A stretch of DNA of 64,000 nucleotides from positions 63,704 to 127,703 of the forward strand of contig JANNXU010000084.1 of assembly GCA_031409715.1 (NCBI GenBank), in the 5' to 3' direction. The number at the start of each line of letters is the position of its first letter. Within the stretch, counting starts at the first letter, position 1. This document shows, in pieces, positions 14,557 to 54,166 of the stretch. The DNA comes from Gemmatimonadaceae bacterium. GTDB taxonomy: Bacteria; Gemmatimonadota; Gemmatimonadetes; Gemmatimonadales; Gemmatimonadaceae. The notes beneath the pieces are model-generated. The model saw only the letters and a program-made list of their open reading frames with translations. It ran no database searches and had not been told where the DNA came from. The translations under genes were made by a program, and so were the position numbers.

Positions 14557-15887
14557 CGCAGCAGGCGGGCGCTCTGCAGCCCGTTCAGCAGCGCATCGAG
14601 CGCGAGGGCGCTGAGTGCCTTCACGCCGGTCGGCAGGGAGGCCTCGTCCACGTCGTACATCGGCGAGTGATTGGCAGGGACACCGAACGGGTCGCGATCG
14701 CGTGGCGTCACGCCGAGGAAGAAGAACAACCCCGGCACCTTCTCCACGAGGCGCGAGAAGTCCTCGGCCGGCATCGATGGCATGCTTTCCAGCACCTGCG
14801 TGTCGCCGAGCGTGTTGCGCAGCACCGACGTGGCGCGGCCGAACCAGCGCGGATCGTTGGCGGTGGTGGGGTAGCCCGTGTCGATCGTGACCGTGGCGGT
14901 CGCGCCGCCGGCCTTGGCATACTCCTCGGCGATGGTGCGGAGCTGGGCGCGGATCAGGTCGCGCGCCTTGTCGTTGAAGGTGCGGAAGGTGCCGAACATC
15001 ACCGCGCTGTCCGGGATGATGTTCTCGCGGACGCCTGCCTGGAATCCGCCGACGGTGAGGATCGCCGGCCCGGCGGTGAGGTCCACGTTGCGGCTGACGA
15101 TCGTCTGCAGTCCCGTGACGATCTGTGCACCGATCACGATCGGGTCGACGCTGCGCCACGGCTGCGCACCGTGCGCCTGGCGGCCATGCACGACGACGCG
15201 CCAGTTGTCGGAACTCGCCATCATGCCACCGCTGCGGGTGGAGACCGTGCCGGTGGGCCCTGGCCAGGTGTGCAGGCCGTAGACCGCCTCGACCTTCGGG
15301 TCGTCGAGTGCGCCGGCATCGATCATCGGCTGGGCGCCGCCCTTGCCGCCCGCCTCCTCGGCCGCCTGAAACAGGAATGTCACGGACCCTGGCAGCGTCG
15401 CCTTCATCCCCGACAGCACTTCAGCGACGCCCATCAGGATGGCCGTGTGGGCATCGTGCCCGCAGGCGTGCATGACACCAACCGTCTGACCGCGGTAGGC
15501 GGTGGTGACCCTGGATGCGAACGGGAGGCCCGTCTGCTCAGTGACCGGCAGGGCATCCATGTCGGCACGGAGGGCAACCGCCGGGCCGGGCCGTCCCCCG
15601 CGGAGGATCGCAACCACGCCATGCGTCCCGCCGACCTCGGTGCGGACCTCCAGGCCCAGCGATTTCAGGTGGGCCGCCACGACGGCGGCCGTGCGCGTCT
15701 CCTCATAGCTGAGCTCGGGATGCTCGTGGAGATCGCGGCGCCAACTCACCACCTTGGGCGCGACCCGGGCGATGCGGGCGTCGAGATCCCGGAGCGTGGC
15801 GGCCGGGAGCGGCGGCGTGAGTGGGGCCTGCGCGGCCTGCAGGGCGGCGGAGACCAGGGTGAGCACGGAGAGGGGAAGGAGGCGCAT
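14553..15887 (-). CDS. M20D-family amidohydrolase (aminoacylase / hippurate-hydrolase type), secreted
   Basis: The signal peptide is MRLLPLSVLTLVSAALQAAQA. Motifs include HEHPELSYEE and MHACGHDAHTAILMG. It is translationally coupled to the downstream HAD gene. Confidence 0.9.
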   Translation of the reverse strand: MRLLPLSVLTLVSAALQAAQAPLTPPLPAATLRDLDARIARVAPKVVSWRRDLHEHPELSYEETRTAAVVAAHLKSLGLEVRTEVGGTHGVVAILRGGRPGPAVALRADMDALPVTEQTGLPFASRVTTAYRGQTVGVMHACGHDAHTAILMGVAEVLSGMKATLPGSVTFLFQAAEEAGGKGGAQPMIDAGALDDPKVEAVYGLHTWPGPTGTVSTRSGGMMASSDNWRVVVHGRQAHGAQPWRSVDPIVIGAQIVTGLQTIVSRNVDLTAGPAILTVGGFQAGVRENIIPDSAVMFGTFRTFNDKARDLIRAQLRTIAEEYAKAGGATATVTIDTGYPTTANDPRWFGRATSVLRNTLGDTQVLESMPSMPAEDFSRLVEKVPGLFFFLGVTPRDRDPFGVPANHSPMYDVDEASLPTGVKALSALALDALLNGLQSARLLR

Positions 15888-15894
15888 GCAGGGA

Positions 15895-15900
15895 ATTCTA
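15895..15900 (-). promoter_or_regulatory. Putative -10 box TAGAAT, 7 nt upstream of the ATG (leaderless candidate)
   Basis: The minus strand reads CTAGAAT-tccctgc-ATG. There is no Shine-Dalgarno sequence. Confidence 0.45.
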
Positions 15901-19300: not shown

Positions 19301-19306
19301 TAGAAT
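19301..19306 (+). promoter_or_regulatory. Putative -10 box TAGAAT, 5 nt upstream of ATG 19312 (leaderless candidate)
   Basis: The sequence reads GATAGAAT-ggggc-ATG. Confidence 0.45.
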
Positions 19307-19311
19307 GGGGC

Positions 19312-20610
19312 ATGACATCCACGGTCGTGCCCAGCACCGCGAACCGCCTCCGCTCGATCGTCGGCGGGTCGGTCGGCAACCTCGTCGAGTGGTACGACTG
19401 GTACGCCTACTCGGCGTTCTCGCTCTACTTCGCGAAATCGTTCTTCCCGCCGGCCGACCAGACCGTGCAGCTGCTGAACGCGGCGGCGGTGTTCGCGGTG
19501 GGCTTCCTGATGCGGCCACTCGGCGGGTGGCTGATGGGTCGCTACGCCGACCGGCACGGGCGGCGCACGGCGCTGACGGCGTCGGTGCTGCTGATGTGCG
19601 CCGGGTCGCTGCTGATCGCGGTCACGCCGACGTACGCGCGCATCGGCATGGCGGCGCCGGCGCTGCTGGTGATCGCGCGCATGCTGCAGGGTGTGAGTGT
19701 GGGCGGCGAATACGGCGCGAGCGCGACGTACCTGAGCGAGATGGCGGGGCACGAGCATCGCGGGTTCTGGTCCAGCTTCCAGTACGTGACGCTGATCATG
19801 GGGCAGCTGCTGGCGCTGGGTGTGCTGCTGGTGCTGCAGCGCACGATGAGCACGGCGTCGCTGGAGATGTGGGGGTGGCGCATCCCGTTCGTGATCGGCG
19901 CGGCCTGTGCGCTGGTGGCGGTGACGCTGCGGCGCGGCATGGAAGAGACGACCGCCTTCACGCGCACCGTGCAGCCCGGCACCACGCGCGGGTCAGCACT
20001 GGCGGGACTGCTGGCGCACCCACGGTCGGTGGCAACGGTGTTCGGGCTGACCGCCGGCGGGACGGTGGCGTTCTACACGTTCACGACGTACGCCCAGAAG
20101 TTCCTGGTGAACACGGCAGGATTCACCAAGTCGGATGCCACGCTCGTCTCGGCGGCGTCACTGGCGATCTTCATGTGCGTGCAGCCGCTGGTGGGGACGA
20201 TTTCCGATCGCATCGGTCGGCGCCCCGTGCTGATGACGTTCGGTGTGGTGGGCACGCTTGGCACGCTGCCGCTGCTGACGGCATTGTCGAAGGCGGCGAC
20301 ATTCGGGAGTGCGCTGCTGCTGCTGACGCTCGCGCTGCTGGCGGTGAGCGGCTACACGGCGATCAACGCGGTGGTGAAGGCGGAGCTGTTCCCCGCGCAC
20401 GTGCGGGCACTGGGTGTGGCGTTTCCGTATGCGATCGCGGTGTCCGTGTTCGGCGGCACGGCGGAGTATCTGGCGCTCTGGTTCAAGAACATGGGCCACG
20501 AGCAGTGGTTCTACTGGTACGTGACGGCGTGCATTGCAGTGAGTCTGGTGGTGTATGCGACGATGCCGGAGACGCGGCACAGTGCGGCAATGCGCGAGGG
20601 TGAGGGGTGA
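19312..20610 (+). CDS. MFS transporter, metabolite:H+ symporter family (KgtP/ProP-like)
   Basis: Motifs: VGNLVEWYDWYAYSAF and the RPLGGWLMGRYADRHGRR loop (MFS motif A). About 12 hydrophobic segments are present. The start is moved from GTG 19291 to ATG 19312. Confidence 0.88.
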   Translation: MTSTVVPSTANRLRSIVGGSVGNLVEWYDWYAYSAFSLYFAKSFFPPADQTVQLLNAAAVFAVGFLMRPLGGWLMGRYADRHGRRTALTASVLLMCAGSLLIAVTPTYARIGMAAPALLVIARMLQGVSVGGEYGASATYLSEMAGHEHRGFWSSFQYVTLIMGQLLALGVLLVLQRTMSTASLEMWGWRIPFVIGAACALVAVTLRRGMEETTAFTRTVQPGTTRGSALAGLLAHPRSVATVFGLTAGGTVAFYTFTTYAQKFLVNTAGFTKSDATLVSAASLAIFMCVQPLVGTISDRIGRRPVLMTFGVVGTLGTLPLLTALSKAATFGSALLLLTLALLAVSGYTAINAVVKAELFPAHVRALGVAFPYAIAVSVFGGTAEYLALWFKNMGHEQWFYWYVTACIAVSLVVYATMPETRHSAAMREGEG

Positions 20611-20646
20611 GTGCGGGGTGCCATCACCCGTGTGGGTGACGGCGTG

Positions 20647-21519: not shown

Positions 21520-23489
21520 TGCGACGTGGCTGGCTGGTGCCGACGGCGATGATGACGGTGGCGACGGTGGCGTTCCCGTGTGGCGGGTCGAACAGCTACG
21601 ACGTGGATGGCCCGCTGGCGTCGTCGGTGACGTATGCCGAACGGGCGCTCTATCCGGTGATCGACATGCTGGACAACGTCACGCGGGACGAGATTCGCTT
21701 TCTGCCCGGGCTGATGCGAGCGGACTCCGTGCGTTTCGCAGCGCTGATCGGGCGGCCTCCGCTGGTCGTGTCGTGGTGGGACACGACGACGAAGGTGCGC
21801 GTGGCCGAGCCGTCGGCGAGGTCGCTGGAGGCGGCGTGGGCCCGTGGTGACGTGGACGCCGCCACCGGTGCAGCGCGCACACTCGTGGCGGCGATCATGG
21901 GGATGCCGTTCGCGCCCGACTCGGCACGCGACGCCGCGTTGCGGCTGGCGGTGGAGACGATCGAGCTGGCGCCGGCGGTGGCGGCGCAGCCCGTCGCGTC
22001 GCGCAAGGCGGCATTCACGCGACTGGCGCAGCCGGCGCGGATGACACCGTTCGACTCACTCCCGGCACTGCTGGCGCGTGACCCACAGTCACCGCGGCGG
22101 GCATCGCTCGAGTACGCGGCGCTGCGCGGTGCCGTGCGCACGGGGATTCCGGACGACACGCGTGAGGAGATCGCGAAGCAGGTGCCGGCGGCGCGGTGGG
22201 ATTCGCTGCAGGGGGCGCATCGTGGGTGGCTGTCACGGTATCCGCAGCATCCGTACGCGACGCTGGTGGCGCTGCAGCGCATGCGGCTGTTCTATCTCGC
22301 ATCGCAGAACGACAGCGCGTGGGTTGCAGCGGTCGCGCTCTACGCCACGCATCCCGTGCGTGCGGCCAGCGAGATGCGGTACATGTTGCAGACGGCTGCG
22401 CTGCCGTCGGCGTCGTTCCTGACCGAAACGCGGGTGCCACTGGAGGTGCGCGCGTCGCTGGTGGGCAACATGCGACCGTCCAGCGCGGCATGGTCTGCGC
22501 TGGGCGTGGCGGCCATGTGGAGTCGGCGTGATCCGCTGAGTGACAACCTGCAGGAGCGCCTGCTCGCGGCGATTGCGTCTGATTCATCGGCGGTCGTCGT
22601 GCTGCCGGCGACGTTCCCCGCGTGGCAGCCCACGCGATCACCGCTCTGGCGATACCTCTGGGCGGCGAGCCTGCTGCGCGCCGGACGGGCGAACGACGCG
22701 CTGCCGTTCACGACGATCCCGGTCACGCTGGCGCAGGATTCACTGCTCCACGAGGAGGCGGTGAATCTCACCGCGCGCATTCACCTCGCGCGCGCCGACT
22801 ATGTCGCGGCGGCCGCGACGCGCGGTCTCGACGGGTGGACTCGGCGCTACATCGTTCGCGTGCTCACGCCGGACAGTATCGTGCCGCAGCTGGCGGCGGT
22901 GACTGATGCCGCAGTCTCGCACGAGGCGCGGCTGCTGCTCGCGGTTCGTGCGGCGCAGGCAGGCCAGTGGAGTGCTGCGGCGTCGCAGGTGCGACCGTTC
23001 GATGCGCCGCGCGCGGCACTCTACACGCGGATCGGCACGCTGGCGCGTGACACGGTGTCGAACGCCGGACTGCTGCGATATGCGGGTGCGCTGGCCGCAG
23101 CCGGTGGCCGACTGTTCAACGAATCGTCGCGCTATTTCTACCGCGGGCTGATGAATCGTGACTATGCGCTGAACCCGCAGTACGACGCCGACGGACGTAC
23201 ACGGTGGGACCTGCCCTGGTCTCGGGAGCATGAGCGGACGCGGATGTTCCGGGCGCTGCGCGAAGGTTCGGAGCGGATGCTGGCGCTGACGGCATTCGCA
23301 TCGTACTTCGACCGACCCGGTGTGACGGCCGCGCAACGTGCGGCGGCGGTGCGGCTGGCCGACAGGACGTATCGGCAGCTGCTGGATACCGACCCGTCGC
23401 GGAACGATTCGGGGTTCTGGGTAGACTCGCTCCCGTCGAGCGCTGAAGGGCGTGCGATCCGGCGCGCGGGGCGCCGGCCGGGTGCGTGA
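21519..23489 (+). CDS. Hypothetical protein (about 656 aa, helix-rich), probable lipoprotein
   Basis: MRRGWLVPTAMMTVATVAFPCGGS. ATG 21519 overlaps the upstream TGA by 1 nt. GC3 is high and no family was recognised. Confidence 0.6.
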   Translation: MRRGWLVPTAMMTVATVAFPCGGSNSYDVDGPLASSVTYAERALYPVIDMLDNVTRDEIRFLPGLMRADSVRFAALIGRPPLVVSWWDTTTKVRVAEPSARSLEAAWARGDVDAATGAARTLVAAIMGMPFAPDSARDAALRLAVETIELAPAVAAQPVASRKAAFTRLAQPARMTPFDSLPALLARDPQSPRRASLEYAALRGAVRTGIPDDTREEIAKQVPAARWDSLQGAHRGWLSRYPQHPYATLVALQRMRLFYLASQNDSAWVAAVALYATHPVRAASEMRYMLQTAALPSASFLTETRVPLEVRASLVGNMRPSSAAWSALGVAAMWSRRDPLSDNLQERLLAAIASDSSAVVVLPATFPAWQPTRSPLWRYLWAASLLRAGRANDALPFTTIPVTLAQDSLLHEEAVNLTARIHLARADYVAAAATRGLDGWTRRYIVRVLTPDSIVPQLAAVTDAAVSHEARLLLAVRAAQAGQWSAAASQVRPFDAPRAALYTRIGTLARDTVSNAGLLRYAGALAAAGGRLFNESSRYFYRGLMNRDYALNPQYDADGRTRWDLPWSREHERTRMFRALREGSERMLALTAFASYFDRPGVTAAQRAAAVRLADRTYRQLLDTDPSRNDSGFWVDSLPSSAEGRAIRRAGRRPGA

Positions 23490-23590
23490 AAATGGTGACG
23501 CTGGCGTGGATTCCAGGCGGTAGACTGGTGGCGTGCGGTGCACCGTGGCGGCATGCACCCCGCTTCTTCGCCCTCAGCCGAGCCTAGCAT

Positions 23591-24154
23591 ATGGCCATGC
23601 GATCCCCCACGCGCTCCGATTGGACCGTCGCGGAGCTGCAGCAGTTGCCCGACGACGGCAACCGCTACGAGATCATCGACGGGGTGCTGTACATGACCCC
23701 GGCGCCTCGTGCGGTGCATCAGCTGGTCGCTGGCGAACTCTTCGTGCTGCTGAAGCTCTACGGCAAGGCGGCCGGGCAGATGGTGTTTTTCGCTCCCGCG
23801 GACGTCACGTTTTCGGATCGGACACTGGTGCAGCCCGACGTGTTCGCGTTTCCGGCGCCGGCAAGTATCACCTCGTTCAGCTACACCGACATCACGCATC
23901 TCGATCTCGCAATCGAAGTCCTGTCGCCAGAGACGGCGCGCGTGGACCGCTTCATCAAGCGACGCCTGTACCAGCGGCAGGGCGTGACCGAATACTGGAT
24001 CGTGGATGCGGACACGCGATCGGTGGAGCGGTGGCGTCCCGACTCGGTCGAGGGCGAACGGATCACCGGGGCGCTCTCATGGCAGCCGCGGCCGGAGCAT
24101 GCGGCGCTGATGATCGAGCTGTCGACGCTGTTCCGGGACGCACTGGGCGAGTAA
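23591..24154 (+). CDS. Uma2-family (DUF820) PD-(D/E)XK endonuclease
   Basis: Hallmarks: W.V.E....PDDGNRYEIIDGVLYMTPAP, VQPDV, AIEVLSPET, K...Y...GV.EYWIVD. The second ATG (23597) may be the real start. Confidence 0.85.
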   Translation: MAMRSPTRSDWTVAELQQLPDDGNRYEIIDGVLYMTPAPRAVHQLVAGELFVLLKLYGKAAGQMVFFAPADVTFSDRTLVQPDVFAFPAPASITSFSYTDITHLDLAIEVLSPETARVDRFIKRRLYQRQGVTEYWIVDADTRSVERWRPDSVEGERITGALSWQPRPEHAALMIELSTLFRDALGE

Positions 24155-24197
24155 TGCGGACCCGGTGGCTCACCGGGGCAGCCGTCGCGGCGCGGGG

Positions 24198-24203
24198 TAG
24201 ATT
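24198..24203 (+). promoter_or_regulatory. Putative -10 box TAGATT, 5 nt upstream of ATG 24209 (leaderless candidate)
   Basis: The sequence reads GGGTAGATT-ccggc-ATG. Confidence 0.45.
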
Positions 24204-24208
24204 CCGGC

Positions 24209-26866
24209 ATGCGTGACATCCGCGACCGATACCTCCCGCCCGACCCGGATGCCTTCCGGGAGGCGCGACCCGCCCGTGGGCGCGTCATCATCATCGCCCC
24301 CACCCGGGCCGCCTGCGAGACGATCGAGCTCGCCTTCACGCTGAACCTCCAGACGTACCTGGAGACGCACCACGGCACACGCCTCCGCGAACTGGCGGCC
24401 AGCGGGAAGGGCTTCGGGATCGTCGCCGGCACGGGCACGGGCAAGACGCTGGCGGTGCGCCCGATCGCGGAAACGATCCTCGGCGAAGCGCTGCGCGTCG
24501 GCGTGATCAACCGCGAGCGCGAGGCCACGCCGGAGACGCCACAGTGGAACGTGATCATCGTGACCACCGGCATCGCGCGGCGCTGGTTTCAGGACGGTGA
24601 CATCGACGAGCACGACACGGTGGTCGTGGACGAGATCCACCAGACCTCGGCCGAACTCGAACTGTGCCTGGCACTCGGCAAGCGGGCGCGCTGCCGCTTC
24701 ATCTGGCTGTCGGCCACCGTCGATCCGTCGTTCTACTCGCAGTATCTCGACAGCGGCGACGTGCTGGAGGTATACAGCTTCGACGAGGCGAAGAAGGCGA
24801 CGGTGGAGGTGCTGACGCGCAGTCCAGCCGACTTCCTCGACGACAAGTTCCTGAAGAAGGTGATCGCGGAGCGCCGCGGCGTGGCGATGTTCCTGCCGAC
24901 GCGCGCCGGCACGGAGGATGCTGCGCGGCACGTGCAGGAGAGCTACCCGAAGATCCACGCGCAGCACTACCACGGCGGTGAGCCGATCCGCGTGATCCGG
25001 CAGTATCTGGACGAGGGCGGTGTGCCCAAGCCGTTCTTCCTGTCGATGACGGCAGCCGGTCAGAGCGCGATCACGGTGCAGGGGCTGGACACGGTGATCA
25101 TCGACGACACGCGATTCACCAACATGGTCGACAAGGGTCGCAACGTGCTCACGCGCGTGCACCTGGGTGCGAACGAACTGCTGCAGATGGCGGGTCGCGT
25201 GCATGGACGCGTGGCGGGCGGACGGGTGTTCATCCTGTCCGATCGCCGCATCCCGTTCGAGCAGCTGCGGCCCGAGTTGCCCGAGTTCCAGCTGGCCGGC
25301 GACAGCGAGCGGGTGGCGATCACCTGCGCGGCGATCGGTGTGCGCGCCGACGATCTCGAGCTGCCGGTGCCGCTGGACAGGGTCGCCTACCGCCGCGCGG
25401 TGGCGCTGCTCGAGACGCGCAACCTCGTCGCCAACGGTCGCCTGACGGACTACGGCCGCGCTGTCGAGAAGATGCCGGTGGAGCGGCCGTGGGCCGAGCT
25501 GCTGGTGAACAGCGACGACGACCTGGTGCCCTACGTGGCGGTGATGAGCGGCGTGGAAAGCCTGCACAGGATGACGCGCGAGGATCGCAACCTGGACAGC
25601 ATGCTGATCCCGGGCAGCGACCATCTGACGGCGTACAACGTGTATGCCGAGGCGTTCACGAAGTACGGGTACGTGGGCACCGTGTATGGATTACCGCGCC
25701 AGCTCTTCCACGACGAGATCGCGGAGTGGGCGGAGGTGAAGGGCGTGCTGGTGAAGTCGCTGGAGGATGCGGCGCTGGCGATGGCGAGCGTCTATCGCTC
25801 GTTGAATGCGCCGTTGCCGACCGCGTTGCCGAGGGCAACCGAGGCGACGCGGGCGCGCTTCAGTGAGCTGCTGGCGCAGGTGATGCCGTTCGACCTCGTG
25901 ATCGACGAGGAGACGGCCTGGGGTGAGAGTGCGCGCGTGGGGAAGACGAGCGTCTGCGGGAGCTGGGGCGCGGTGGCGGGCACCCTGCGCTTCTTCGCCG
26001 ACCGGATGGGTATCCCGCGCGCGTCGATCGAGGGGACGCAGATCGCGCCGGCGCTGCTGCGGACGTTCGCGCACTACGGCGAGAGCACGCTGGCGTACGA
26101 CCCGCACAAGCGGCAGGGGCAGCTCGTGCGCACGCGGCGTGTGACGTACGGCGGCTTCGAGCTGGAACGCGAGACGGAGGTGCTTGGCGACTTCACGCCC
26201 GACGTGGCATCGCAGGCGCGCGACGTGCTGGCCGACGCGTTCGCGACGGAGCAGGTGCGCCATCCGGCCCTGGAGCGCAATCGTCCGATGGTTGCGGAGG
26301 CGCGTGAGGTATGGCGGCGCAGCGGCGGTGTGACTCGACGCGTGTCACAGGCCGATGTGGCGGCGTGGTATCGCGCGCGCATCGACGGTGTGGAGTCGGT
26401 GAATGACCTGAAGCACCTGCCGCTTCGGATGACGTGGGACGACTGGGTGTCACCGGAGGAACGAGCGCGCTATGAGGCGTTGCCGCACATGGTGAGCGTG
26501 CGGGATCGCCAGGTGCCGGTGGAATACGACGTGGAGGAGCGCGACGACGGCTCGCTGTTCGGCGTGGCGAAGCTGCGGCTGCCGGAGAAGCTGGCGCGCA
26601 CGCTGGTGACGGAGGAACTGCCGCCGTTCGACCGTCCGTACCGCTTCGTCGTGCTGCGTGGTCAGCGTGGCTCGGCGCGGGGTCGTACGCTGGACGAGTT
26701 GCAGGAGGCGCTGGATGCGCCGTGGATGCCGGACGAACTGGCGACGCTCGGTGACTCGTATGGCGCGCGGAAGGGTGGTCGTGAGCGAGCGCGCGAGGAG
26801 TACCAGCGGGGGAAGGAGCGACGGTCGGTCATTCCGCCCAGGAAGCGGGGCCGGAAGGGGCGTTAG
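24209..26866 (+). CDS. DEAH/RHA-type (HrpA/HrpB-like) helicase with an uncharacterised ~450-aa C-terminal region
   Basis: Motifs: AGTGTGKT (Walker A), VVVDEIHQ (motif II), LSATVD (III), QMAGRVHGR (VI-like). Length is 885 aa. Confidence 0.85.
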   Translation: MRDIRDRYLPPDPDAFREARPARGRVIIIAPTRAACETIELAFTLNLQTYLETHHGTRLRELAASGKGFGIVAGTGTGKTLAVRPIAETILGEALRVGVINREREATPETPQWNVIIVTTGIARRWFQDGDIDEHDTVVVDEIHQTSAELELCLALGKRARCRFIWLSATVDPSFYSQYLDSGDVLEVYSFDEAKKATVEVLTRSPADFLDDKFLKKVIAERRGVAMFLPTRAGTEDAARHVQESYPKIHAQHYHGGEPIRVIRQYLDEGGVPKPFFLSMTAAGQSAITVQGLDTVIIDDTRFTNMVDKGRNVLTRVHLGANELLQMAGRVHGRVAGGRVFILSDRRIPFEQLRPELPEFQLAGDSERVAITCAAIGVRADDLELPVPLDRVAYRRAVALLETRNLVANGRLTDYGRAVEKMPVERPWAELLVNSDDDLVPYVAVMSGVESLHRMTREDRNLDSMLIPGSDHLTAYNVYAEAFTKYGYVGTVYGLPRQLFHDEIAEWAEVKGVLVKSLEDAALAMASVYRSLNAPLPTALPRATEATRARFSELLAQVMPFDLVIDEETAWGESARVGKTSVCGSWGAVAGTLRFFADRMGIPRASIEGTQIAPALLRTFAHYGESTLAYDPHKRQGQLVRTRRVTYGGFELERETEVLGDFTPDVASQARDVLADAFATEQVRHPALERNRPMVAEAREVWRRSGGVTRRVSQADVAAWYRARIDGVESVNDLKHLPLRMTWDDWVSPEERARYEALPHMVSVRDRQVPVEYDVEERDDGSLFGVAKLRLPEKLARTLVTEELPPFDRPYRFVVLRGQRGSARGRTLDELQEALDAPWMPDELATLGDSYGARKGGRERAREEYQRGKERRSVIPPRKRGRKGR

Positions 26867-26965
26867 TCGGTGTGGCTCGACGGTCTCCACGAGCAACACG
26901 TTTCGTCGGTGTGGCTCGACGATCGTCGACAGCAGGACGCTTTGTCGGTGTGGCTCGACGATCGT

Positions 26966-26982
<17 letters not shown>
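26866..26982. repeat. 39-bp tandem repeat x3 starting at the helicase stop codon
   Basis: GTCGGTGTGGCTCGACG(G/A)TC... begins at 26866, 26905 and 26944. The tail of the third unit merges into the A-type module. Confidence 0.9.
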
Positions 26983-27180
<198 letters not shown>

Positions 27181-27226
27181 AATCCGTGTGCTTCGTGGGC
27201 GGTGATTGCCCGGAGACGGCGTTGGA

Positions 27227-27240
27227 GGACCGTTCGGTCC
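27227..27240. promoter_or_regulatory. 14-bp palindrome GGACCGTTCGGTCC (distal copy of the putative TetR operator)
   Basis: The palindrome is perfect and is followed by TAGTGA. It has the same half-sites as the copy at 27352. Confidence 0.5.
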
Positions 27241-27351
27241 TAGTGAAATGCTGAAAAGTTCGTGGTCGAAAGGTCGTCCTGGTTGCTGCTTGCCGCGTAA
27301 GTCATTCTCTTGCAATGACTTGCGCGGCTTTTCCGTTCGGGGTTGCGTATT

Positions 27352-27371
27352 GGACCGAGCGGTCCTAGTTT
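27352..27371 (+). promoter_or_regulatory. Palindrome GGACCGAGCGGTCC abutting the putative -10 box TAGTTT of tetR
   Basis: GGACCGAGCGGTCC (27352-27365) is followed by TAGTTT (27366-27371), 7 nt, then GTG 27379. Confidence 0.55.
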
Positions 27372-27378
27372 CACCCTC

Positions 27379-27996
27379 GTGAATACCCGACGCTCTCAGA
27401 TCCTCGATGTGGCAGCCGTGCTGATTGGGCGGCAGGGGTATTCCGCGACGTCCGTCGATGATGTCATTCGGGAATCGCGGCTGAGTGGCAAGAGTCACTT
27501 CTACCACTACTTCCGGAGCAAGGAAGAGCTCGGGTTCGAGGTGCTGGACCGGCAGTTCGAGCGATTCGCGGAGCGAGGTCTGGCGATCCTGCGGGAGCCG
27601 ATGATCGACCCGCTGGAGCGTCTCTACCTCTTCATCGATTCGCTGGTGGCGGCGCATGCCGAGCGCGGGTGTCACGGCGGATCGCCGTTCGGGACGCTGG
27701 CGGCGGAGATGGCTGATGCGCACGAAGGGTTCAGGCTGAGGATCGCGCAGGTGTTCGTGCGATGGTCCGGTCAGATCCAGTCGCTGCTCTGGGAGGCGCG
27801 GCCGCAGTTGCAGGATGACGTGGACGCGGTTCGGCTGTCGCGCTTCATCATCGCGGCGCTGGAAGGGGGGCTGATGATGTCGCGCGTGAAGCGGGACATC
27901 ACGGTGATGGAAGGGATCGCGCTGGACCTGAAGCGATTCATTTCGACGCACCTGCGCGACCCCGGTGCGGGGCTGCATCCGCCGGCGGGAGTTTGA
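27379..27996 (+). CDS. TetR/AcrR-family transcriptional regulator
   Basis: The N-terminal HTH is RRSQILDVAAVLIGRQGYSATSVDDVIRESRLSGKSHFYHYFRSKEEL. The start is moved to GTG 27379, in frame with TTG 27343. Confidence 0.85.
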   Translation: MNTRRSQILDVAAVLIGRQGYSATSVDDVIRESRLSGKSHFYHYFRSKEELGFEVLDRQFERFAERGLAILREPMIDPLERLYLFIDSLVAAHAERGCHGGSPFGTLAAEMADAHEGFRLRIAQVFVRWSGQIQSLLWEARPQLQDDVDAVRLSRFIIAALEGGLMMSRVKRDITVMEGIALDLKRFISTHLRDPGAGLHPPAGV

Positions 27997-28080
27997 CGAA
28001 TGCATGACGCCGGGCAGGGCCGGTTTGGTAGGGCACATCGGGCACGGGCAGGCCACACGACAGGACCTCGGGAGCAGACC

Positions 28081-28704
28081 ATGTCGGCAACGCAGCAGCA
28101 GGAACGGACGAGAACGAAGGGCAACGCAGTCTCGCGCAGCGAGGCGCCGCTCGAAGGCCGTGCGCGGTTCGAGGCCGAGGCGTTGGTGCATCTTGATGCG
28201 ATGTACAGCTTTGCTCTGAAGCTGTCGCGTTCACGGGACGACGCTGAGGATCTCGTGTCCGACACGATCCTTCGTGCCTTCGAGCGCTGGGAGCAGTACC
28301 GACTCGGCACCAACATCCGGGCGTGGCTGTTCACGATCCTCTACCACGTCTTCGTGAGTCGCAAGCGTCGGATCGACGCGCGCGAGGTGCAGGCCACGGA
28401 CGAGACGGATGGCTGGGGCGCATTCGAGCCGGTGGGCGAGGCGAACCCCGAGGCGCGCTTCTACGAAACGTTCCTCGACGCGGAGATCACGACGGCGATC
28501 GACAACCTGCCTGACGAGTATCGTGCGGCGGTGGTGTTGTCGGACATCCACGAACTGCGGTATGCCGAGATCGCACACATCCTCGGGGTGCCCGAGGGGA
28601 CGGTGAAGAGCCGCCTGTTCCGCGGGCGTCGCATCCTGCAGAAGAAGCTGGTGGGGTATGCGATGGACATGGGGTACATCAAGTCCGTTCCCGAAGCGGC
28701 CTGA
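28081..28704 (+). CDS. ECF (sigma-70 family group IV) RNA polymerase sigma factor
   Basis: Region 2 is DAEDLVSDTILRAFERWEQY...WLFTILYHVF. Region 4 is YRAAVVLSDIHELRYAEIAHILGVPEGTVKSRLFRGR. GGGAG lies upstream of ATG 28081. Confidence 0.88.
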   Translation: MSATQQQERTRTKGNAVSRSEAPLEGRARFEAEALVHLDAMYSFALKLSRSRDDAEDLVSDTILRAFERWEQYRLGTNIRAWLFTILYHVFVSRKRRIDAREVQATDETDGWGAFEPVGEANPEARFYETFLDAEITTAIDNLPDEYRAAVVLSDIHELRYAEIAHILGVPEGTVKSRLFRGRRILQKKLVGYAMDMGYIKSVPEAA

Positions 28705-29777: not shown

Positions 29778-29867
29778 GGGGACCTTCTCTTGAGAGGATG
29801 ATTCGACGTTACCCCCGAATTGCGTTGACGCAAGCAAACGCGCTCGGCGCTGCGCTACCTTCGCGGC

Positions 29868-30440
29868 ATGACGGAACCTGTGCTGCTGCCCGGCGTGCAG
29901 CGTGTCGTGGTCGGATCGACGAACCCGGTGAAGGTCGCGGCGGTCCGCGCGACGGTGACCCGCTGCGCCAGGCACGTGGTGGTGCATGGGGTTGCGGTAC
30001 CATCCGGCGTGCCCGACCAGCCATGGGGCGACGCGGAGACCGTGGCGGGCGCACGGCAGCGCGCGCTGGCGGCGCTCGGGGCCGATCCGAGTGCCGATCT
30101 CGCGGTTGGTCTGGAAGGGGGCGTGGTGCGCGAGTCCGACGGCGGCGTACGGACCTGCGCCTGGGCGGTGGTGGTGGACCGCGCCGGCGTGGTGGGGATC
30201 GGCGGCTCGATGGCGCTGACGTTGCCGCCAGGCGTCGTGGCGCTCCTCGATGGCGGCATGGAGCTGGGCCATGCCATGGATGCCGTCGCGCGCACGACCG
30301 GAACCAAGCATGCCGGCGGGGCGGTGGGCCTGCTCACCGCCGGGCTGGTGCCGCTGCAGCGCATGTACGAGACGCTGACGGCCTATGCCCTGTCGCGCTT
30401 TCTGCAGCATGGGTTGTGGGAGGAGCACGCGTCAGGCTGA
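29868..30440 (+). CDS. yjjX: Inosine/xanthosine triphosphatase (YjjX / DUF84 family NTPase)
   Basis: Motifs: VVVGSTNPVKVAAV, GVPDQPWG, GLEGGV, with family-typical length (190 aa). TACCTT lies 6 nt upstream of the ATG. Confidence 0.75.
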   Translation: MTEPVLLPGVQRVVVGSTNPVKVAAVRATVTRCARHVVVHGVAVPSGVPDQPWGDAETVAGARQRALAALGADPSADLAVGLEGGVVRESDGGVRTCAWAVVVDRAGVVGIGGSMALTLPPGVVALLDGGMELGHAMDAVARTTGTKHAGGAVGLLTAGLVPLQRMYETLTAYALSRFLQHGLWEEHASG

Positions 30441-30530
30441 CGGGCGACCGCGTGCACTGGGCGGCGGCGCGCCATTTCCCCGTGTGGAGCTGCCCGCCGG
30501 TGGAGGCCCGACGCGCGCCGGGCCGCACTC

Positions 30531-30697
30531 GTGGACTGGAAACGAAGTTCGGGAAAGCAGTCGCCGGTCGGAGCATCCCGGCTGGCTGCGTTGAACATCC
30601 TCGCAATACCGCGGGTATTGCTGTGGTTTTCGCCTTCCCATCCGGGCGCCCCACCCGGCTTGATGCTCTCCGAACTTCATTTCCAATCCACTAGATT
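30531..30697 (+). promoter_or_regulatory. ispH upstream element: 22-bp inverted repeat (2 mismatches) ending in CAC-TAGATT
   Basis: GTGGACTGGAAACGAAGTTCGG starts at 30531, and CCGAACTTCATTTCCAATCCAC lies at 30670-30691. TAGATT (30692-30697) is 6 nt from ATG 30704. The right half is 27/33 identical to the pyp upstream region. Confidence 0.55.
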
Positions 30698-30703
30698 ACG
30701 AGG

Positions 30704-31924
30704 ATGTCAGTCACCGACGAAGAGACGTACTACCGGAAGGGGTTCGGCCTCAAGGCCGACGTACAGGACACCCTCGCCGACGATTACACCGGCCGCCTGG
30801 TGGACGTGTTGCGGGCCAGCGAGTACACGGTCACCTCTGGGGACGTGACGGTGCGCCTCGCCAAGGAGTTCGGCTTCTGCTACGGCGTGGAGCGGGCCGT
30901 CGAGTACGCCTACCAGACGCGCCGGAAGTTTCCGGACCGCCGCGTCTTTCTGGCTGGCGAGATCATCCACAACCCGCACGTGAATCACAAGCTGCGGGAG
31001 ATGGACATCACCTTCCTGCAGTCGAAGGGGACCGGGTTCGACTACGACCTCGTCCAGCCGGACGACGTGGTGATCCTGCCGGCATTCGGCGTGACGATTC
31101 AGGACTTCGAGACGCTGCGCGCACTGGGCTGCATCATGGTGGACACCACCTGCGGCTCGGTGCTGAACGTCTGGAAGCGGGTCGAGAAGTACGCGCGTGA
31201 CGGCTTCACGTCGCTGATCCATGGCAAGCACTATCACGAGGAGACGCGCGCGACCGCCAGCCAGGTGCAGAAGTATCCCGAGGGGCGCTATCTGGTGGTG
31301 CGCGACATGTCGGAGGCGCGGCTCGTCTGCGACTTCATCGAGGGCCGGTGGGACCGGGCGAGTTTCCTCGAGAAGTTCGCGGCTGACCGCGCCTCGCCCG
31401 GTTTCGACCCCGACCTGCACCTGCGACGGATCGGTGTGGCCAACCAGACGACGATGCTGGCGCGTGAGTCGCTGGCGATCGGCGAAGAGGTGGGGCAGGC
31501 GATGGCGCGAGCGCACGGCGCTGCGGCTCGCGAGGCGAACTTCCGCACCTTCGACACCATCTGCTCCGCCACGCAGGACCGTCAGGATGCCGTGGAGGAG
31601 CTGCTGCAGGAGCCGCTGGACGTGATGCTGGTGGTGGGCGGGTACAACTCGAGCAACACGATCTCGCTGGCGGCGATCTGCGCCGACAAGGTGACCACCT
31701 ACCACGTGGAGGATGCCGAGGGCATCGATCCGGTGGCGGGTGTGGTGCGGTACCGGCCCATCGGGCTGCACGTGGAGGAGGCGACGCGCACCGGCTGGAT
31801 GCCGGCGACGGGGCCGGTTCGGGTCGGAATCACGGCGGGCGCGAGCACGCCGAACAACAAGATCGGCGAGGCTGTGGCGCGCATCTTCCAGACGCGGGGC
31901 ATCGACCCGGCGCAGATCGGGTGA
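30704..31924 (+). CDS. ispH: 4-hydroxy-3-methylbut-2-enyl diphosphate reductase (long form)
   Basis: FGFCYGVERAVEYAY, GEIIHNPHV and later conserved Cys/His regions are typical of IspH/LytB. Length is 406 aa. Confidence 0.9.
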   Translation: MSVTDEETYYRKGFGLKADVQDTLADDYTGRLVDVLRASEYTVTSGDVTVRLAKEFGFCYGVERAVEYAYQTRRKFPDRRVFLAGEIIHNPHVNHKLREMDITFLQSKGTGFDYDLVQPDDVVILPAFGVTIQDFETLRALGCIMVDTTCGSVLNVWKRVEKYARDGFTSLIHGKHYHEETRATASQVQKYPEGRYLVVRDMSEARLVCDFIEGRWDRASFLEKFAADRASPGFDPDLHLRRIGVANQTTMLARESLAIGEEVGQAMARAHGAAAREANFRTFDTICSATQDRQDAVEELLQEPLDVMLVVGGYNSSNTISLAAICADKVTTYHVEDAEGIDPVAGVVRYRPIGLHVEEATRTGWMPATGPVRVGITAGASTPNNKIGEAVARIFQTRGIDPAQIG

Positions 31925-39638: not shown

Positions 39639-41024
39639 CTAGAGCTGTCCGGTGGATCCCCAGCGCTGCAGGCGCGCCTGGTATGCCGGATCGTCGTACC
39701 GCTCGAGGCGGAACGCCGGCGCGTATGGAGGAAGCGTGTCGCCCGTGACCGCCGCCGCCACCAGCTCGGCACCGGCGGGGGCGGCCATCAGCCCGTAGCC
39801 GGAGAGGGCGGCGTGCACATACGCCCCCGCCACCGGCAGCGCCCCGATCAGCGGGCGGTTCTCGGCCGTCTTGGTGTAGTAGCCGCCGTCCACATACATC
39901 GGCGGGAGTCGGTCCAGATACCGGGCCAGGCCGGGCGCGAGGCGCACCATGCCGCGCATCACGACCTCGGGGTAGAAGGGATCATCGGGCAGCGGCAACT
40001 CGGCGGTCTGATAGCGATGCGTGCTGTGATAGTCCCAAAGCATCAGCACCGTCTGGTTGTTGCGATAGCCCTCGGGACGGAGATGAATGCCGGCGGGCAT
40101 GGGCAGGGTGAGCCAGCGCGTGGCGTCATCGGCGGCGAGGTCGGCGCGTTCGTCGTCGTTCCACTCGAGCTGCTGCGCATCGTCGAGGATGACGAGGCCG
40201 GTGTTGCGGTCGATGACGCCGAGTGTGTCCTCGAACGCGACCTTGAGGTGCATCTCGGAGAAGAGCGGGAGGTCCACGCCGGTGAGCTGCGCGACCTCAC
40301 GGGCGAAGGGACCGGCGCAATTGACGAACGCGCGCGTCTGCAGCGTGACATCGGTGCCGTCGGTGCACGCGACGTGTACCGCGCTGACGTGTCCTGCCTC
40401 GCAGGTGACGGACTCCACGCGACCGCTCAGCAGCGTGGCACCCGCGGCGCGCGCCTCGTCCAGCAGGTACATGCCGAGCTGCTGCCCGCTCATCCAGCCG
40501 CAGCGGCGCGCGTGCAGCACCGCGACGACGGCGGGGTCGAGGAATGGGAAGTGCGCGCGGATCGCGTCGCGATCGAGAAAGAGGTCGGCGCCGGTGGGAT
40601 GATCGCGCCAGCCGGTGTGGGCGCTGGGCTGGTAGGCAGCGGCGTCGGCGAGGCTGCGATAGGTGCGCAGATCGCCGGCGCCTTGTGCCGATGCGAGCGC
40701 CGCGTCGCGCATGAACTGCGCCGCCTTGTCGGCATCGGTGGTGGCGTAGACGTAGCCGCGTCGATTGAGCAGGAAGCGGTCACCGCTGGCATCGGCCCAC
40801 TGCTCCAGCAGGTCGATGCTGCGGTTCATGAATTGCACCATCGCATCGTCGGGACCGGGCCACCAGTTGCGATAGGCCTCGGTGGACTTGTCGCTGGTGA
40901 GCGTGAGCGGCGAGCGCTCGTCGACGATCGTGATGTGCCGCACGCCGCGGAGGGCGAGGGCATGTGCGGTGGCGATGCCGGCGATGCCGGCGCCGCAGAT
41001 GACGACGTCGCTGGTGCGTGACAT
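39639..41024 (-). CDS. FAD-dependent oxidoreductase (DAO family)
   Basis: MSRTSDVVICGAGIAGIATAHAL carries the GxGxxG motif. The start is moved to ATG 41022-41024. Length is 461 aa. Confidence 0.85.
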   Translation of the reverse strand: MSRTSDVVICGAGIAGIATAHALALRGVRHITIVDERSPLTLTSDKSTEAYRNWWPGPDDAMVQFMNRSIDLLEQWADASGDRFLLNRRGYVYATTDADKAAQFMRDAALASAQGAGDLRTYRSLADAAAYQPSAHTGWRDHPTGADLFLDRDAIRAHFPFLDPAVVAVLHARRCGWMSGQQLGMYLLDEARAAGATLLSGRVESVTCEAGHVSAVHVACTDGTDVTLQTRAFVNCAGPFAREVAQLTGVDLPLFSEMHLKVAFEDTLGVIDRNTGLVILDDAQQLEWNDDERADLAADDATRWLTLPMPAGIHLRPEGYRNNQTVLMLWDYHSTHRYQTAELPLPDDPFYPEVVMRGMVRLAPGLARYLDRLPPMYVDGGYYTKTAENRPLIGALPVAGAYVHAALSGYGLMAAPAGAELVAAAVTGDTLPPYAPAFRLERYDDPAYQARLQRWGSTGQL

Positions 41025-41031
41025 GGGGCGA

Positions 41032-41037
41032 AGGATA
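41032..41037 (-). promoter_or_regulatory. Putative -10 box TATCCT, 7 nt upstream of the ATG (leaderless candidate)
   Basis: The minus strand reads CACTATCCT-tcgcccc-ATG. Confidence 0.35.
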
Positions 41038-53621: not shown

Positions 53622-53644
53622 GCGACACCGCCAGCGCGAGTGGA

Positions 53645-53718
53645 GTGGACATGAAGTTGGGGCAGCACAAAGCCGGCTGGCGACTGCACCCCGAACTTCG
53701 TTTCCACGTCACTAGATT
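53645..53718 (+). promoter_or_regulatory. pyp upstream element: imperfect inverted repeat ending in CAC-TAGATT, homologous to the ispH element
   Basis: GTGGACATGAAGTTGGGG lies at 53645-53662 and CCCCGAACTTCGTTTCCAC at 53689-53707. TAGATT (53713-53718) is 7 nt from ATG 53726. Confidence 0.55.
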
Positions 53719-53725
53719 GCGCGGC

Positions 53726-54166
53726 ATGGAGACCCCGGACACCCCACGCACGGACCTGCAGCGACTGACTCCGGCGTCGCACGAGGCGCTGAAGGCCGAG
53801 ATCCTCTCGACGGCCGACACGATGTCGGGCGAGGAGCTGGACACGCTGCCGTACGGCATGATCCAGCTGGACGCGACGGGGCGCATCCTCAAGTACAACG
53901 CCGTCGAGAGTCGCCTCGCGCAGCTGCCGCAGGAGACGACGATCGGCAAGAAATTCTTCAGCGAAATCGCACCGTGCACGAAGGTCCAGCAGTTCTACGG
54001 GCAGTTCAAGGACGGGGTGCTGCGCGAGTCGCTGGACACGACCTTCTCCTTCCACTTCGCGTTCAAGCAGAACCCGCGTGACGTGACGGTGCGGCTGTTC
54101 TACAGCAAGCGGACGCGGAGTGTGTGGGTGATGATCTCGGACCGGGAAGGGAACCCGATCGGGTAG
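53726..54166 (+). CDS. pyp: Photoactive yellow protein homolog (PAS-fold blue-light photoreceptor)
   Basis: It aligns with H. halophila PYP recalled from memory: GMIQLDATGRILKYNAVE versus GAIQLDGDGNILQYNAAE, and IGKKFFSEIAPCT versus IGKNFFKDVAPCT. Tyr42, Glu46 and Cys69 equivalents are present. Length is 146 aa. Confidence 0.88.
   Translation: METPDTPRTDLQRLTPASHEALKAEILSTADTMSGEELDTLPYGMIQLDATGRILKYNAVESRLAQLPQETTIGKKFFSEIAPCTKVQQFYGQFKDGVLRESLDTTFSFHFAFKQNPRDVTVRLFYSKRTRSVWVMISDREGNPIG

What the first reader, a model, noticed from the sequence alone, without database searches (positions are those of the whole stretch)
24198..24211. A TAGAWT-like box 5-7 nt upstream of many start codons suggests widespread leaderless transcription
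The same arrangement recurs at the first genes of transcription units.
- Helicase: TAGATT-5-ATG (24198)
- ispH: TAGATT-6-ATG (30692)
- pyp: TAGATT-7-ATG (53713)
- MFS transporter: TAGAAT-5-ATG (19301)
- M20D amidohydrolase, minus strand: TAGAAT-7-ATG (15895-15900)
- tetR: TAGTTT-7-GTG (27366)
- Uma2: TAGCAT-6-second ATG (23585)
- FAD oxidoreductase, minus strand: TATCCT-7-ATG (41032-41037)
- Possibly yjjX: TACCTT-6-ATG (29856)

None of these genes has a Shine-Dalgarno sequence. Other genes in the window (lon, aldH, the ECF sigma, the PEP-CTERM protein, the 18155 ATP-grasp gene, the pseudopilin) have clear GGAG-type sites instead.

The spacing matches a -10 hexamer (TANNNT) placed so that transcription starts at the start codon. 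No conserved -35 is visible. The pattern also helps fix true start codons.
Basis: partly seen in the sequence, partly recalled or inferred. Interest (0 to 1): 0.6.

Follow-up and report, generated by a model that had tools for sequence, protein, structure and literature searches.

The report
Promoter boxes abutting start codons (leaderless genes)
In this Gemmatimonadaceae bacterium about one gene in seventeen, including nine in this window, has a promoter "-10" box 5-7 bases before its start codon, which is the known signature of leaderless messenger RNAs, seen here in a phylum where I found no description of it.

Summary

**Genome-wide enrichment.** In the 5.02-Mb genome, TANNNT lies 5/6/7 nt before in-frame ATGs at gene 5' ends 57/103/53 times, against about 14 per other spacing. 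It is the only one of 64 XYNNNZ patterns enriched there (5.2x). It occurs at first genes of transcription units (13.4% of genes with a divergent neighbour) but not inside operons (2.5%, the null rate). It prefers ATG.

**Conservation.** 100 of 103 orthologues in same-genus genomes keep T1, A2 and T6 at 5-9 nt, while flanks and middle bases diverge.

**Reading.** The best reading is -10-only promoters that start transcription at the start codon, giving leaderless mRNAs. This is the arrangement known from Actinobacteria and Deinococcus-Thermus (GeneMarkS-2 "group C").

- The genome consensus is TAnnTT (TAGCTT, TAGATT, TATCTT), not TAGAWT.
- Prevalence is moderate: about 6% of genes, roughly one transcription unit in nine.
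- The "lon" gene has no GGAG site.

The organism is Gemmatimonadaceae, and I found no paper on leaderless genes in that phylum. This is a new member of a known kind. An earlier agent of this scan had already described the MITE next to two of the boxes.

The parts
24198..24211 (+). Helicase gene: -10 box TAGATT (24198-24203), 5-nt gap, ATG 24209
   Evidence: 14 of 14 genus orthologues keep TAGATT, TACATT or TAACTT at 5-6 nt while the upstream sequence is unalignable. It is the only start candidate in the ORF and lies at coding onset.
30692..30706 (+). ispH: -10 box TAGATT (30692-30697), 6-nt gap, ATG 30704
   Evidence: 13 of 13 genus and 57 of 75 family orthologues keep TANNNT at 5-9 nt; displaced control 2 of 75.
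53713..53728 (+). pyp: -10 box TAGATT (53713-53718), 7-nt gap, ATG 53726
   Evidence: 14 of 15 genus orthologues have TATATT, TAGATT, TACATT, TAACTT or TATGTT at exactly 7 nt.
19301..19314 (+). MFS transporter: -10 box TAGAAT (19301-19306), 5-nt gap, ATG 19312
   Evidence: 14 of 14 orthologues keep the box at 5-9 nt.
15885..15900 (-). M20D amidohydrolase: -10 box TAGAAT (15895-15900), 7-nt gap, ATG 15887
   Evidence: 6 of 6 scorable orthologues keep TAGAAT or TAGATT at 6-7 nt.
27343..27381 (+). tetR: -35-like TTGCGT (27343-27348), 17-nt spacer holding the palindrome GGACCGAGCGGTCC (27352-27365), -10 box TAGTTT (27366-27371), 7-nt gap, GTG 27379
   Evidence: 13 of 13 orthologues keep TAGTTT, TACTTT or TAGTAT at 7-8 nt and also the palindrome. 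A terminator-like hairpin at 27292-27328 plus a T-run lies just upstream.
23585..23599 (+). Uma2-family gene: box TAGCAT (23585-23590), 6-nt gap to the second ATG (23597)
   Evidence: Comparative support is weak: only 3 distant homologues, of which one has TACCGT-6-ATG.
41022..41037 (-). FAD oxidoreductase: box TATCCT (41032-41037), 7-nt gap, ATG 41024
   Evidence: The start is confirmed by the GxGxxG motif at residues 10-15 (MSRTSDVVICGAGIAG). 15 of 16 orthologues keep TANNNT at 6-7 nt with variable middle bases.
29856..29870 (+). yjjX-like gene: box TACCTT (29856-29861), 6-nt gap, ATG 29868
   Evidence: 11 of 12 orthologues keep the box at 6-7 nt.
30531..30694 (.). MITE-like fold-back element whose right end (...TCCACTAG) runs into the ispH box
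   Evidence: Inverted ends are visible. The family has about 15 matching ends in the genome. It is absent from the same site in relatives. It carries a terminator-like hairpin at 30603-30621.
53638..53715 (.). Short copy of the same fold-back element abutting the pyp box
   Evidence: Relatives have the divergent gene's 5' end here instead.

Best explanation
The boxes are the -10 elements (T-12, A-11, T-7) of housekeeping-sigma promoters. They sit so that RNA polymerase starts at, or within a base or two of, the A or G of the start codon. The mRNA then has no 5' leader and no Shine-Dalgarno site, and is translated by the leaderless route, in which a ribosome carrying initiator tRNA binds the 5'-terminal AUG.

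These promoters work without a conserved -35 element.

Shown here: the motif, its spacing, its specificity, its restriction to first genes of transcription units, its ATG preference and its evolutionary conservation.

Inferred, not shown: that transcription starts at the start codon, and that these mRNAs are translated as leaderless mRNAs.
For: 1. Spacing. TANNNT occurs 57/103/53 times at gaps 5/6/7 before ATG, against 13.7 at other gaps. A 6-nt gap puts +1 on the A of ATG for a -12 to -7 hexamer (established sigma-70 geometry).
2. Specificity. Of 64 XYNNNZ patterns, only TANNNT is enriched (5.2x; the next is 1.9x).
3. Promoter-like rather than RBS-like distribution. The box is flagged at 13.4% of genes with a divergent upstream neighbour and at 9.1% with an upstream gap of 80 nt or more. 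Only 2.5% of operon-internal genes carry it, which is the chance rate.
4. Start codon. The excess is 188 ATG, 38 GTG and 0 TTG.
5. Coding onset. Flagged ATGs sit at the onset of coding potential, median -9 nt, with 77% within 30 nt.
6. Phylogenetic footprint. 100 of 103 same-genus orthologues of eight window genes keep T1, A2 and T6 at 5-9 nt, while middle bases and flanks vary. A control displaced by 15 nt gives 2 of 103. For ispH this holds in 57 of 75 loci across the family.
7. tetR has a TTGCGT -35 at 17 nt, an operator palindrome ending at the box, and a terminator-like hairpin just upstream.
8. At ispH and pyp a MITE replaced everything upstream of the box, and the box was kept.
9. Upstream of first genes, TANNTT shows a peak at 5-9 nt, a near-empty zone at 10-24 nt and a broad hump at 25-65 nt. 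This fits two promoter classes, leaderless and leadered.
10. The same arrangement is experimentally established as leaderless in Deinococcus and mycobacteria (PMC12340547, PMC4007540, PMC3898074, PMC6028130).
Against: - There is no direct 5'-end evidence.
- A 1-3 nt leader cannot be excluded. Some orthologues have gaps of 8-9 nt.
- Prevalence is below the 25-50% of operons typical of GeneMarkS-2 group C genomes: about 226 excess genes of 4003, or about 10-13% of first genes.
- ispH could also be reached by read-through from yjjX.
- Uma2 has little comparative support.
- My gene model is home-made (codon log-odds). However, the raw pattern count without any gene model gives the same peak.
Confidence: 0.8

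Rival explanations
1. The box is a non-Shine-Dalgarno translation signal, an AU-rich ribosome or S1 binding site in a leadered mRNA. This would resemble the non-SD motif of GeneMarkS-2 group B genomes, which are common in the FCB group to which Gemmatimonadota is related.
For: SD use is low in this genome: GGAG at 5-8 nt gives an excess of about 440-500 genes, 11-13%. A published figure for Gemmatimonadetes is 22% (PMC10783764). The box occupies the position where an RBS would sit.
Against: A translation signal should also precede operon-internal genes, yet there the box is at the chance rate (2.5% against 13.4%). The enrichment is for exactly T1, A2 and T6, not for AT-richness: TANNNA is 1.4x and AANNNT is not in the top ten. 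Conservation in relatives keeps only those three bases.
Confidence: 0.05
2. The boxes are real -10 elements, but for a sizeable share of the genes the true start codon lies further downstream, or the transcription start lies a few bases upstream. The mRNAs would then be short-leadered rather than strictly leaderless.
For: Gaps of 8-9 nt occur: 30 ATG cases at gap 8, and ispH orthologues with TAGTTT-9-ATG. Uma2 has two ATGs 6 nt apart.
Against: The mode is at exactly 6 nt. Flagged ATGs coincide with coding onset. Orthologue N-termini align from that ATG. FAD-ox has GxGxxG ten residues after the ATG.
Confidence: 0.12
3. The pattern is a by-product of chance, of in-frame TAG/TAA stop codons just upstream of first ATGs, or of the MITE that ends in CTAG.
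For: At gap 6 the TAG or TAA of the hexamer is in frame with the ATG, which inflates 'unambiguous start' sets (44 at gap 6 against 4 at gap 7). Two of the nine boxes abut a MITE end.
Against: Gaps 5 and 7, which are out of frame, are also enriched 4-fold. In-frame gaps 3, 9 and 12 are not (8, 17 and 7). TAC and TAT hexamers are as enriched as TAG. Only 4 MITE ends abut such boxes, against 213 boxes. Relatives without the MITE have the same boxes.
Confidence: 0.02

Closest known systems
The '-10-motif adjacent to ORFs' of Deinococcus-Thermus (de Groot et al. 2014, PMC4007540; Zhong et al. 2025, PMC12340547)
   Same: A TANNNT box about 6-7 bp before the ORF. [quoted passage not shown] There is no SD. 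A separate GGAG class of genes exists in the same genome. The box helps to correct start codons.
   Different: There it covers about a third to 47-60% of genes or mRNAs and has been shown by dRNA-seq and reporters. Here it covers about 6% of genes, with no experimental data. The preferred hexamers differ: TACACT there, against TAGCTT, TAGATT and TATCTT here. This genome has no CarD/CdnL-type protein; its only PF02559 hit is the 1159-aa Mfd frame.
Leaderless transcriptomes of Actinobacteria, and GeneMarkS-2 'group C' genomes (Cortes et al. 2013, PMC3898074; Lomsadze et al. 2018, PMC6028130; Zheng et al. 2011, PMC3160421)
   Same: A Pribnow box 6-8 nt from the start of first genes in operons. 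SD sites precede other genes. The motif is TANNNT with little information in the middle, as in other high-GC genomes. There is no strong -35.
   Different: Group C genomes are predicted to have 25-50% leaderless operons, against roughly 10-13% of first genes here. None of these papers names Gemmatimonadota. In Zheng et al. it could only fall under 'Other Bacteria' (8 of 20 genomes, 1.4-16.1%).
Bacteroidetes primary-sigma promoters (-7 TAnnTTTG, -33 TTTG; recalled from Bayley, Rocha and Smith 2000, not checked here) and GeneMarkS-2 group B
   Same: The fifth position is T (61%), and T is often at the seventh position (36-40% at gaps 6-7), giving TAnnTT(t). SD use is low. The phylum is related to the FCB group.
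   Different: There is no G at the eighth position (C is preferred) and no -33 TTTG or any other upstream motif. The box is limited to first genes, unlike a group B RBS-type motif.
Correia repeat-enclosed elements of Neisseria
   Same: A small fold-back element with terminal inverted repeats, sitting at promoter boxes and supplying or duplicating part of a -10 hexamer.
   Different: The sequence family is unrelated. The ends are CTAG. It is a side feature of two of the nine sites, not the cause of the pattern.

Membership tests
Bacterial leaderless genes with a -10 box adjacent to the ORF (GeneMarkS-2 group C type) | A TANNNT (-10-like) motif localised about 6-8 nt upstream of the start codon | tested here: met
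   Peak of 57/103/53 at gaps 5/6/7 against 13.7 background. It is the only enriched XYNNNZ pattern. The raw pattern count shows the same peak.
Bacterial leaderless genes with a -10 box adjacent to the ORF (GeneMarkS-2 group C type) | The motif precedes first genes of operons, not internal genes | tested here: met
   13.4% of genes with a divergent neighbour, 9.1% with a gap of 80 nt or more, and 2.5% with a gap under 25 nt. All nine window genes are first genes.
Bacterial leaderless genes with a -10 box adjacent to the ORF (GeneMarkS-2 group C type) | No Shine-Dalgarno site at these genes, with SD present at other genes | tested here: met
   Among 813 unambiguous starts, 0 have both SD and box, 164 have SD only and 75 have the box only. 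Window genes are listed.
Bacterial leaderless genes with a -10 box adjacent to the ORF (GeneMarkS-2 group C type) | The transcription start maps at the start codon (5' UTR of 0 to a few nt) | not testable with these tools
I found no paper mapping transcription starts in Gemmatimonadota.
Bacterial leaderless genes with a -10 box adjacent to the ORF (GeneMarkS-2 group C type) | Preference for AUG as the 5'-terminal start codon | tested here: met
   Excess of 188 ATG, 38 GTG and 0 TTG. Among all candidates, ATG is 40%; among unambiguous starts, 71%.
Bacterial leaderless genes with a -10 box adjacent to the ORF (GeneMarkS-2 group C type) | Leaderless operons are a large share (25-50%) of all operons | tested here: not met
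   About 226 excess genes of 4003 (5.6%), and about 10-13% of first genes. This bears on the genome's class, not on the individual genes. GeneMarkS-2 itself was not run.
Bacteroidetes-type promoter (TAnnTTTG / TTTG) | TTTG after TAnn, and a -33 TTTG element | tested here: not met
   T is 61% at position 5 and 23-40% at position 7. Position 8 is C, not G. The upstream logo is flat.
Classical sigma-70 promoter with -35 TTGACA | A -35 hexamer 16-18 nt upstream of the -10 | tested here: not met
   Information is under 0.06 bit at every upstream position, with only a slight T excess at -23/-22. The scan gave 0 hits in 23400-31000. tetR alone has TTGCGT at 17 nt.

The most novel reading that the evidence does not exclude
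Gemmatimonadales may carry a conserved set of leaderless genes, including housekeeping ispH. These would be driven by -10-only promoters of consensus TAnnTT that need neither a -35 element nor a CarD/CdnL-type factor. A CTAG-ended MITE lands repeatedly on these boxes and replaces all upstream DNA without destroying them. That is a natural promoter-swap experiment, and it would make the phylum a third, independent bacterial model for leaderless expression.
Probability: 0.4. Interest if true: 0.45.

Novelty: new member of a known kind. Interest (0 to 1): 0.33.

Why it matters
It fixes the true start codons of at least eight genes in the window and of about 225 genes in the genome. Standard gene callers tuned to Shine-Dalgarno sites tend to misplace such starts.

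It extends the -10-adjacent-to-ORF arrangement to Gemmatimonadota, a mostly uncultured phylum with low SD use whose promoters have not been described. It also gives a working -10 consensus (TAnnTT) for that group.

It offers no new mechanism. The phenomenon is well documented in Actinobacteria and Deinococcus-Thermus, and was predicted computationally across bacteria in 2011 and 2018.

Tried and rejected
- **Rfam.** The scan of the window found nothing.
- **C at -1.** I considered C before the ATG as a sign of a transcription start (pyrimidine at -1, purine at +1). C at -1 is equally common at SD-led and other starts, so I dropped it.
- **Unambiguous-start genes.** This set gives 9.2% with the box, but it is biased towards gap 6 because TAG/TAA in frame closes the ORF. 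I used the all-candidate excess instead.
- **False positives.** My scan's extra hits at 20674 (GTG) and 41291 (minus strand) are likely false. Relatives do not keep them and they lie far from coding onset.
- **Shared ispH/pyp sequence.** I considered whether the sequence shared upstream of both genes is a -35 or an ECF-type element. It is the end of a repeat family.
- **Supplements.** The supplements of PMC6028130 and PMC3160421 held nothing on Gemmatimonas.
- **Phylum survey.** The survey by raw pattern against a reversed-pattern control is crude and loses power in lower-GC genomes.
Full report
**Where the window comes from.** The window is contig C84:63704-127703 of a 5.02-Mb, 104-contig, 68.3% G+C genome. 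The 80 best relatives of its ispH protein in the species-level genome collection are nearly all labelled Gemmatimonadaceae, Gemmatimonadales or Gemmatimonadota MAGs, with a best identity of 92%. The organism is therefore a member of Gemmatimonadaceae.

**Check of the observation.** The dinucleotide-binding GxGxxG motif sits ten residues in, which is the normal N-terminus of this enzyme class.

**Genome-wide test.** No gene caller was available, so I built one.
- It takes stop-to-stop ORFs, scores them with codon log-odds trained on long high-GC3 ORFs, and selects greedily without overlaps. It calls 4003 genes.
- For every in-frame ATG or GTG between the upstream stop and 45 nt past the onset of coding potential, I counted TANNNT at each distance.
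- Before ATG the counts at gaps 0-12 are 6, 8, 10, 8, 12, 57, 103, 53, 30, 17, 18, 10, 7. The mean at gaps 12-29 is 13.7. The Poisson probability of 103 is about 1e-53.
- Before GTG there is a smaller peak at gap 6 (40 against about 14). Before TTG there is none.
- The excess over background is 188 ATG, 38 GTG and 0 TTG, about 226 genes or 5.6% of the genome.
Of the 167 TAGAWT hexamers in the whole genome, these 27 (16%) sit in that position.
- Counting the bare pattern TANNTT-Nk-ATG on both strands, with no gene model, gives 53/90/41 at k = 5/6/7 against about 15. The result therefore does not depend on my gene calls.

**Specificity.** Of the 64 patterns XYNNNZ, TANNNT is the only one strongly enriched at gaps 5-7 (5.2x). 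The next, AGNNNT at 1.9x, is a shifted view of TAGNNT or of SD sites. Three artefacts can be set aside.
- The enrichment is not general AT-richness.
- It is not an in-frame stop-codon artefact. Out-of-frame gaps 5 and 7 are enriched, while in-frame gaps 3, 9 and 12 are not. TAC and TAT hexamers are as common as TAG.
- It is not produced by the MITE described below.

**What the box looks like.** I aligned the 213 ATG cases on the box.
- Position 3 is near background (G 0.40, C 0.29, T 0.23).
- Position 4 is C or A.
- Position 5 is T in 61% of cases.
- The commonest hexamers are TAGCTT (28), TAGATT (22), TATCTT (15), TACCTT (11) and TAGTTT (9). TAGAAT has 5.
- The genome consensus is therefore TAnnTT rather than TAGAWT.
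- The base after the hexamer is often T, followed by C.
- No position in the 50 nt upstream carries more than 0.06 bit. There is only a slight T excess where the first two bases of a -35 would lie at a 17-nt spacing.
- A classical -35/-10 scan of 23400-31000 finds nothing.

**Promoter or ribosome-binding site?** The GeneMarkS-2 authors separate the two by asking whether a motif also precedes operon-internal genes (PMC6028130).
- The box is flagged at 13.4% of genes whose upstream neighbour is divergent.
- It is flagged at 9.1% of genes with a same-strand gap of 80 nt or more.
- It is flagged at only 2.5% of genes less than 25 nt behind the previous gene, which equals the chance rate.
- Flagged ATGs sit at coding onset, median -9 nt, with 77% within 30 nt against 52% of all candidate ATGs.
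- Box and SD never co-occur among 813 genes with a single possible start.
- Upstream of 2171 first genes, TANNTT shows a peak at 5-9 nt (141 cases), an almost empty zone at 10-24 nt and a broad hump at 25-65 nt. That is the shape expected if one -10 type serves both leaderless and leadered promoters.

A hexamer at -12 to -7 followed by six bases puts +1 on the A of ATG. This is standard sigma-70 geometry, from established knowledge.

**Comparative evidence.** The region 14000-32000 is syntenic in same-genus genomes at 75-86% DNA identity. I fetched 15 such stretches, plus the pyp and FAD-ox loci.

| Gene | Orthologues keeping TANNNT at 5-9 nt |
|---|---|
| M20D | 6/6 |
| MFS | 14/14 |
| helicase | 14/14 |
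| tetR | 13/13 |
| yjjX | 11/12 |
| ispH | 13/13 |
| pyp | 14/15 |
| FAD-ox | 15/16 |

- In total that is 100 of 103. The same test displaced by 15 nt gives 2 of 103.
- The alignments show the box as an island. Upstream sequence is often unalignable. The three middle bases drift, for example TACCAT, TAGCAT, TAATGT, TACGTT and TAACTT at FAD-ox. T1, A2, T6 and the spacing stay.
- For ispH the box is kept in 57 of 75 loci across the family.
- At order level the arrangement is labile. In one sister family three of five helicase orthologues keep TATATT or TATCAT at 5-6 nt. In another family the gene is coupled to an upstream gene and has no box.
- Related genomes are not independent samples, so these counts are a footprint, not a statistic.

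**How common it is.**
- In this genome about 226 genes, 5.6%, carry the box in excess of background. Allowing for the 2.5% chance rate, that is about one first gene in nine.
- SD sites are themselves scarce. GGAG at 5-8 nt has an excess of about 440-500 genes. This agrees with the 22% reported for class Gemmatimonadetes (PMC10783764).
- The window, with nine such genes among about 45, is richer than average.
- The bare pattern count is similar in all 20 genomes of the genus: 86-132 hits against 18-156 for a reversed-pattern control.
- Across 60 genomes of the phylum the excess over that control is clear in some Gemmatimonadales genera, for example 105 against 16 and 61 against 12. It is absent in other classes, where lower G+C raises the background and the test has little power.

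**Details that fit.**
- tetR has a terminator-like hairpin (27292-27328 plus T-run), then TTGCGT, a 17-nt spacer filled by the palindrome GGACCGAGCGGTCC, then TAGTTT and seven bases to GTG. The palindrome is conserved in 13 relatives. This is the geometry of an autorepressed, self-contained leaderless unit.
- At ispH and pyp the sequence directly upstream of the box is the end of a fold-back repeat with inverted ends (...GAACTTCRTTTCCANTCCACTAG). It has about 15 matching ends in the genome, four of which run straight into TAGNNT-N6-7-ATG.
- Relatives lack the element at these sites but have the same box. The box therefore predates the insertion and survived replacement of all upstream DNA. This fits a promoter that needs no -35 (inference).
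- The ispH copy carries a terminator-like hairpin, which would make ispH depend on its own box.
- An earlier agent of this scan reached the same reading of the repeat (e1-3829180).

- The consensus is TAnnTT, not TAGAWT.
- 'Widespread' is moderate in this genome.
- The 'lon' gene at 41972 has no GGAG-type site in the 24 nt before its only possible start, and its product begins with a signal-peptide-like MRFLPFALLLTLA.
- The other five genes called SD-led do have GGAG, GAGG or AGGAG at 5-8 nt.
- Uma2 is the weakest of the nine.

**Comparison with what is known.**
- A -10 box abutting the ORF is the established signature of leaderless genes in bacteria.
- It was predicted across phyla by Zheng et al. 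(PMC3160421) and built into GeneMarkS-2 as 'group C', 1028 of 4769 bacterial species (PMC6028130).
- It was shown experimentally in Mycobacterium and in Deinococcus (listed; PMC12340547 read). The Deinococcus paper describes the same genus-level conservation of T1, A2 and T6.
- I found no paper linking leaderless genes with Gemmatimonadota or Gemmatimonas, and none mapping transcription starts there.
- One difference from both model phyla: this genome, 96% complete, has no CarD/CdnL-type protein. Its single PF02559 hit is in the 1159-aa Mfd frame.

**Verdict.** It is a new member of a known kind.

Noticed in passing
window 30531-30694 and 53638-53715; other copies listed: A MITE-like fold-back repeat with inverted ends (...GAACTTCRTTTCCANTCCACTAG) has about 15 matching ends in the genome. 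Four of them run directly into TAGNNT-N6-7-ATG: ispH, pyp, and one each on C80 and C96. Relatives lack the element at the ispH and pyp sites. An earlier agent already described it (e1-3829180).
   Followed up: partly
window 27292-27381: The tetR unit reads: terminator-like hairpin, -35-like TTGCGT, palindrome GGACCGAGCGGTCC ending at the -10 box TAGTTT, then seven bases to GTG. The palindrome (TAGGACC-N4-GGTCCTA) is kept in 13 genus relatives, so it is a likely autorepression operator.
   Followed up: partly
window 15901-15945: The spacer between the divergent M20D gene and the gene starting near 15941-15971 holds a block conserved in all relatives (AAAGTAACCGGCCCGGGCCATGTTCCCACGGG), which contains the 10-bp palindrome GGCCCGGGCC. 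Other box-upstream regions are not conserved like this. Its function is unknown.
   Followed up: no
window 29808-29840: A conserved block, GTTACCCCNGGAATGCATTGNCGCAAGCAAA, lies upstream of the yjjX box in 10 or more relatives, between two divergent genes. It may be the other gene's promoter or a regulator site.
   Followed up: no
whole genome (G000): Shine-Dalgarno use is low. GGAG at 5-8 nt exceeds background at only about 440-500 of 4003 genes, although the 16S 3' end is a normal ...GGATCACCTCCTTA. About four-fifths of genes have neither an SD site nor the -10 box.
   Followed up: partly
whole genome (G000:C28:10308-10475): The only CarD_TRCF_RID (PF02559) match lies in a 1159-aa frame, which is Mfd. 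No small CarD/CdnL-type protein was found. Actinobacteria and Deinococcus-Thermus, the two phyla best known for leaderless genes, do have one.
   Followed up: no
It may not be a cytosolic Lon protease.
   Followed up: no
upstream regions of 2171 first genes, genome-wide: TANNTT is almost absent 10-24 nt before start codons (about 0.2-0.6 per 1000 sites). It is common at 5-9 nt (13 per 1000) and at 25-65 nt (about 1.4-2.8 per 1000). This suggests that leaders of about 4-18 nt are avoided.
   Followed up: no
loci L100, L103-L106 (another family of the order): In these genomes the helicase orthologue starts with GTG 5-7 nt after the stop codon of an upstream gene (…GGCGACTGAGCCCG-GTG) and has no box. 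The same gene is leaderless in one lineage and operon-internal in another.
   Followed up: no
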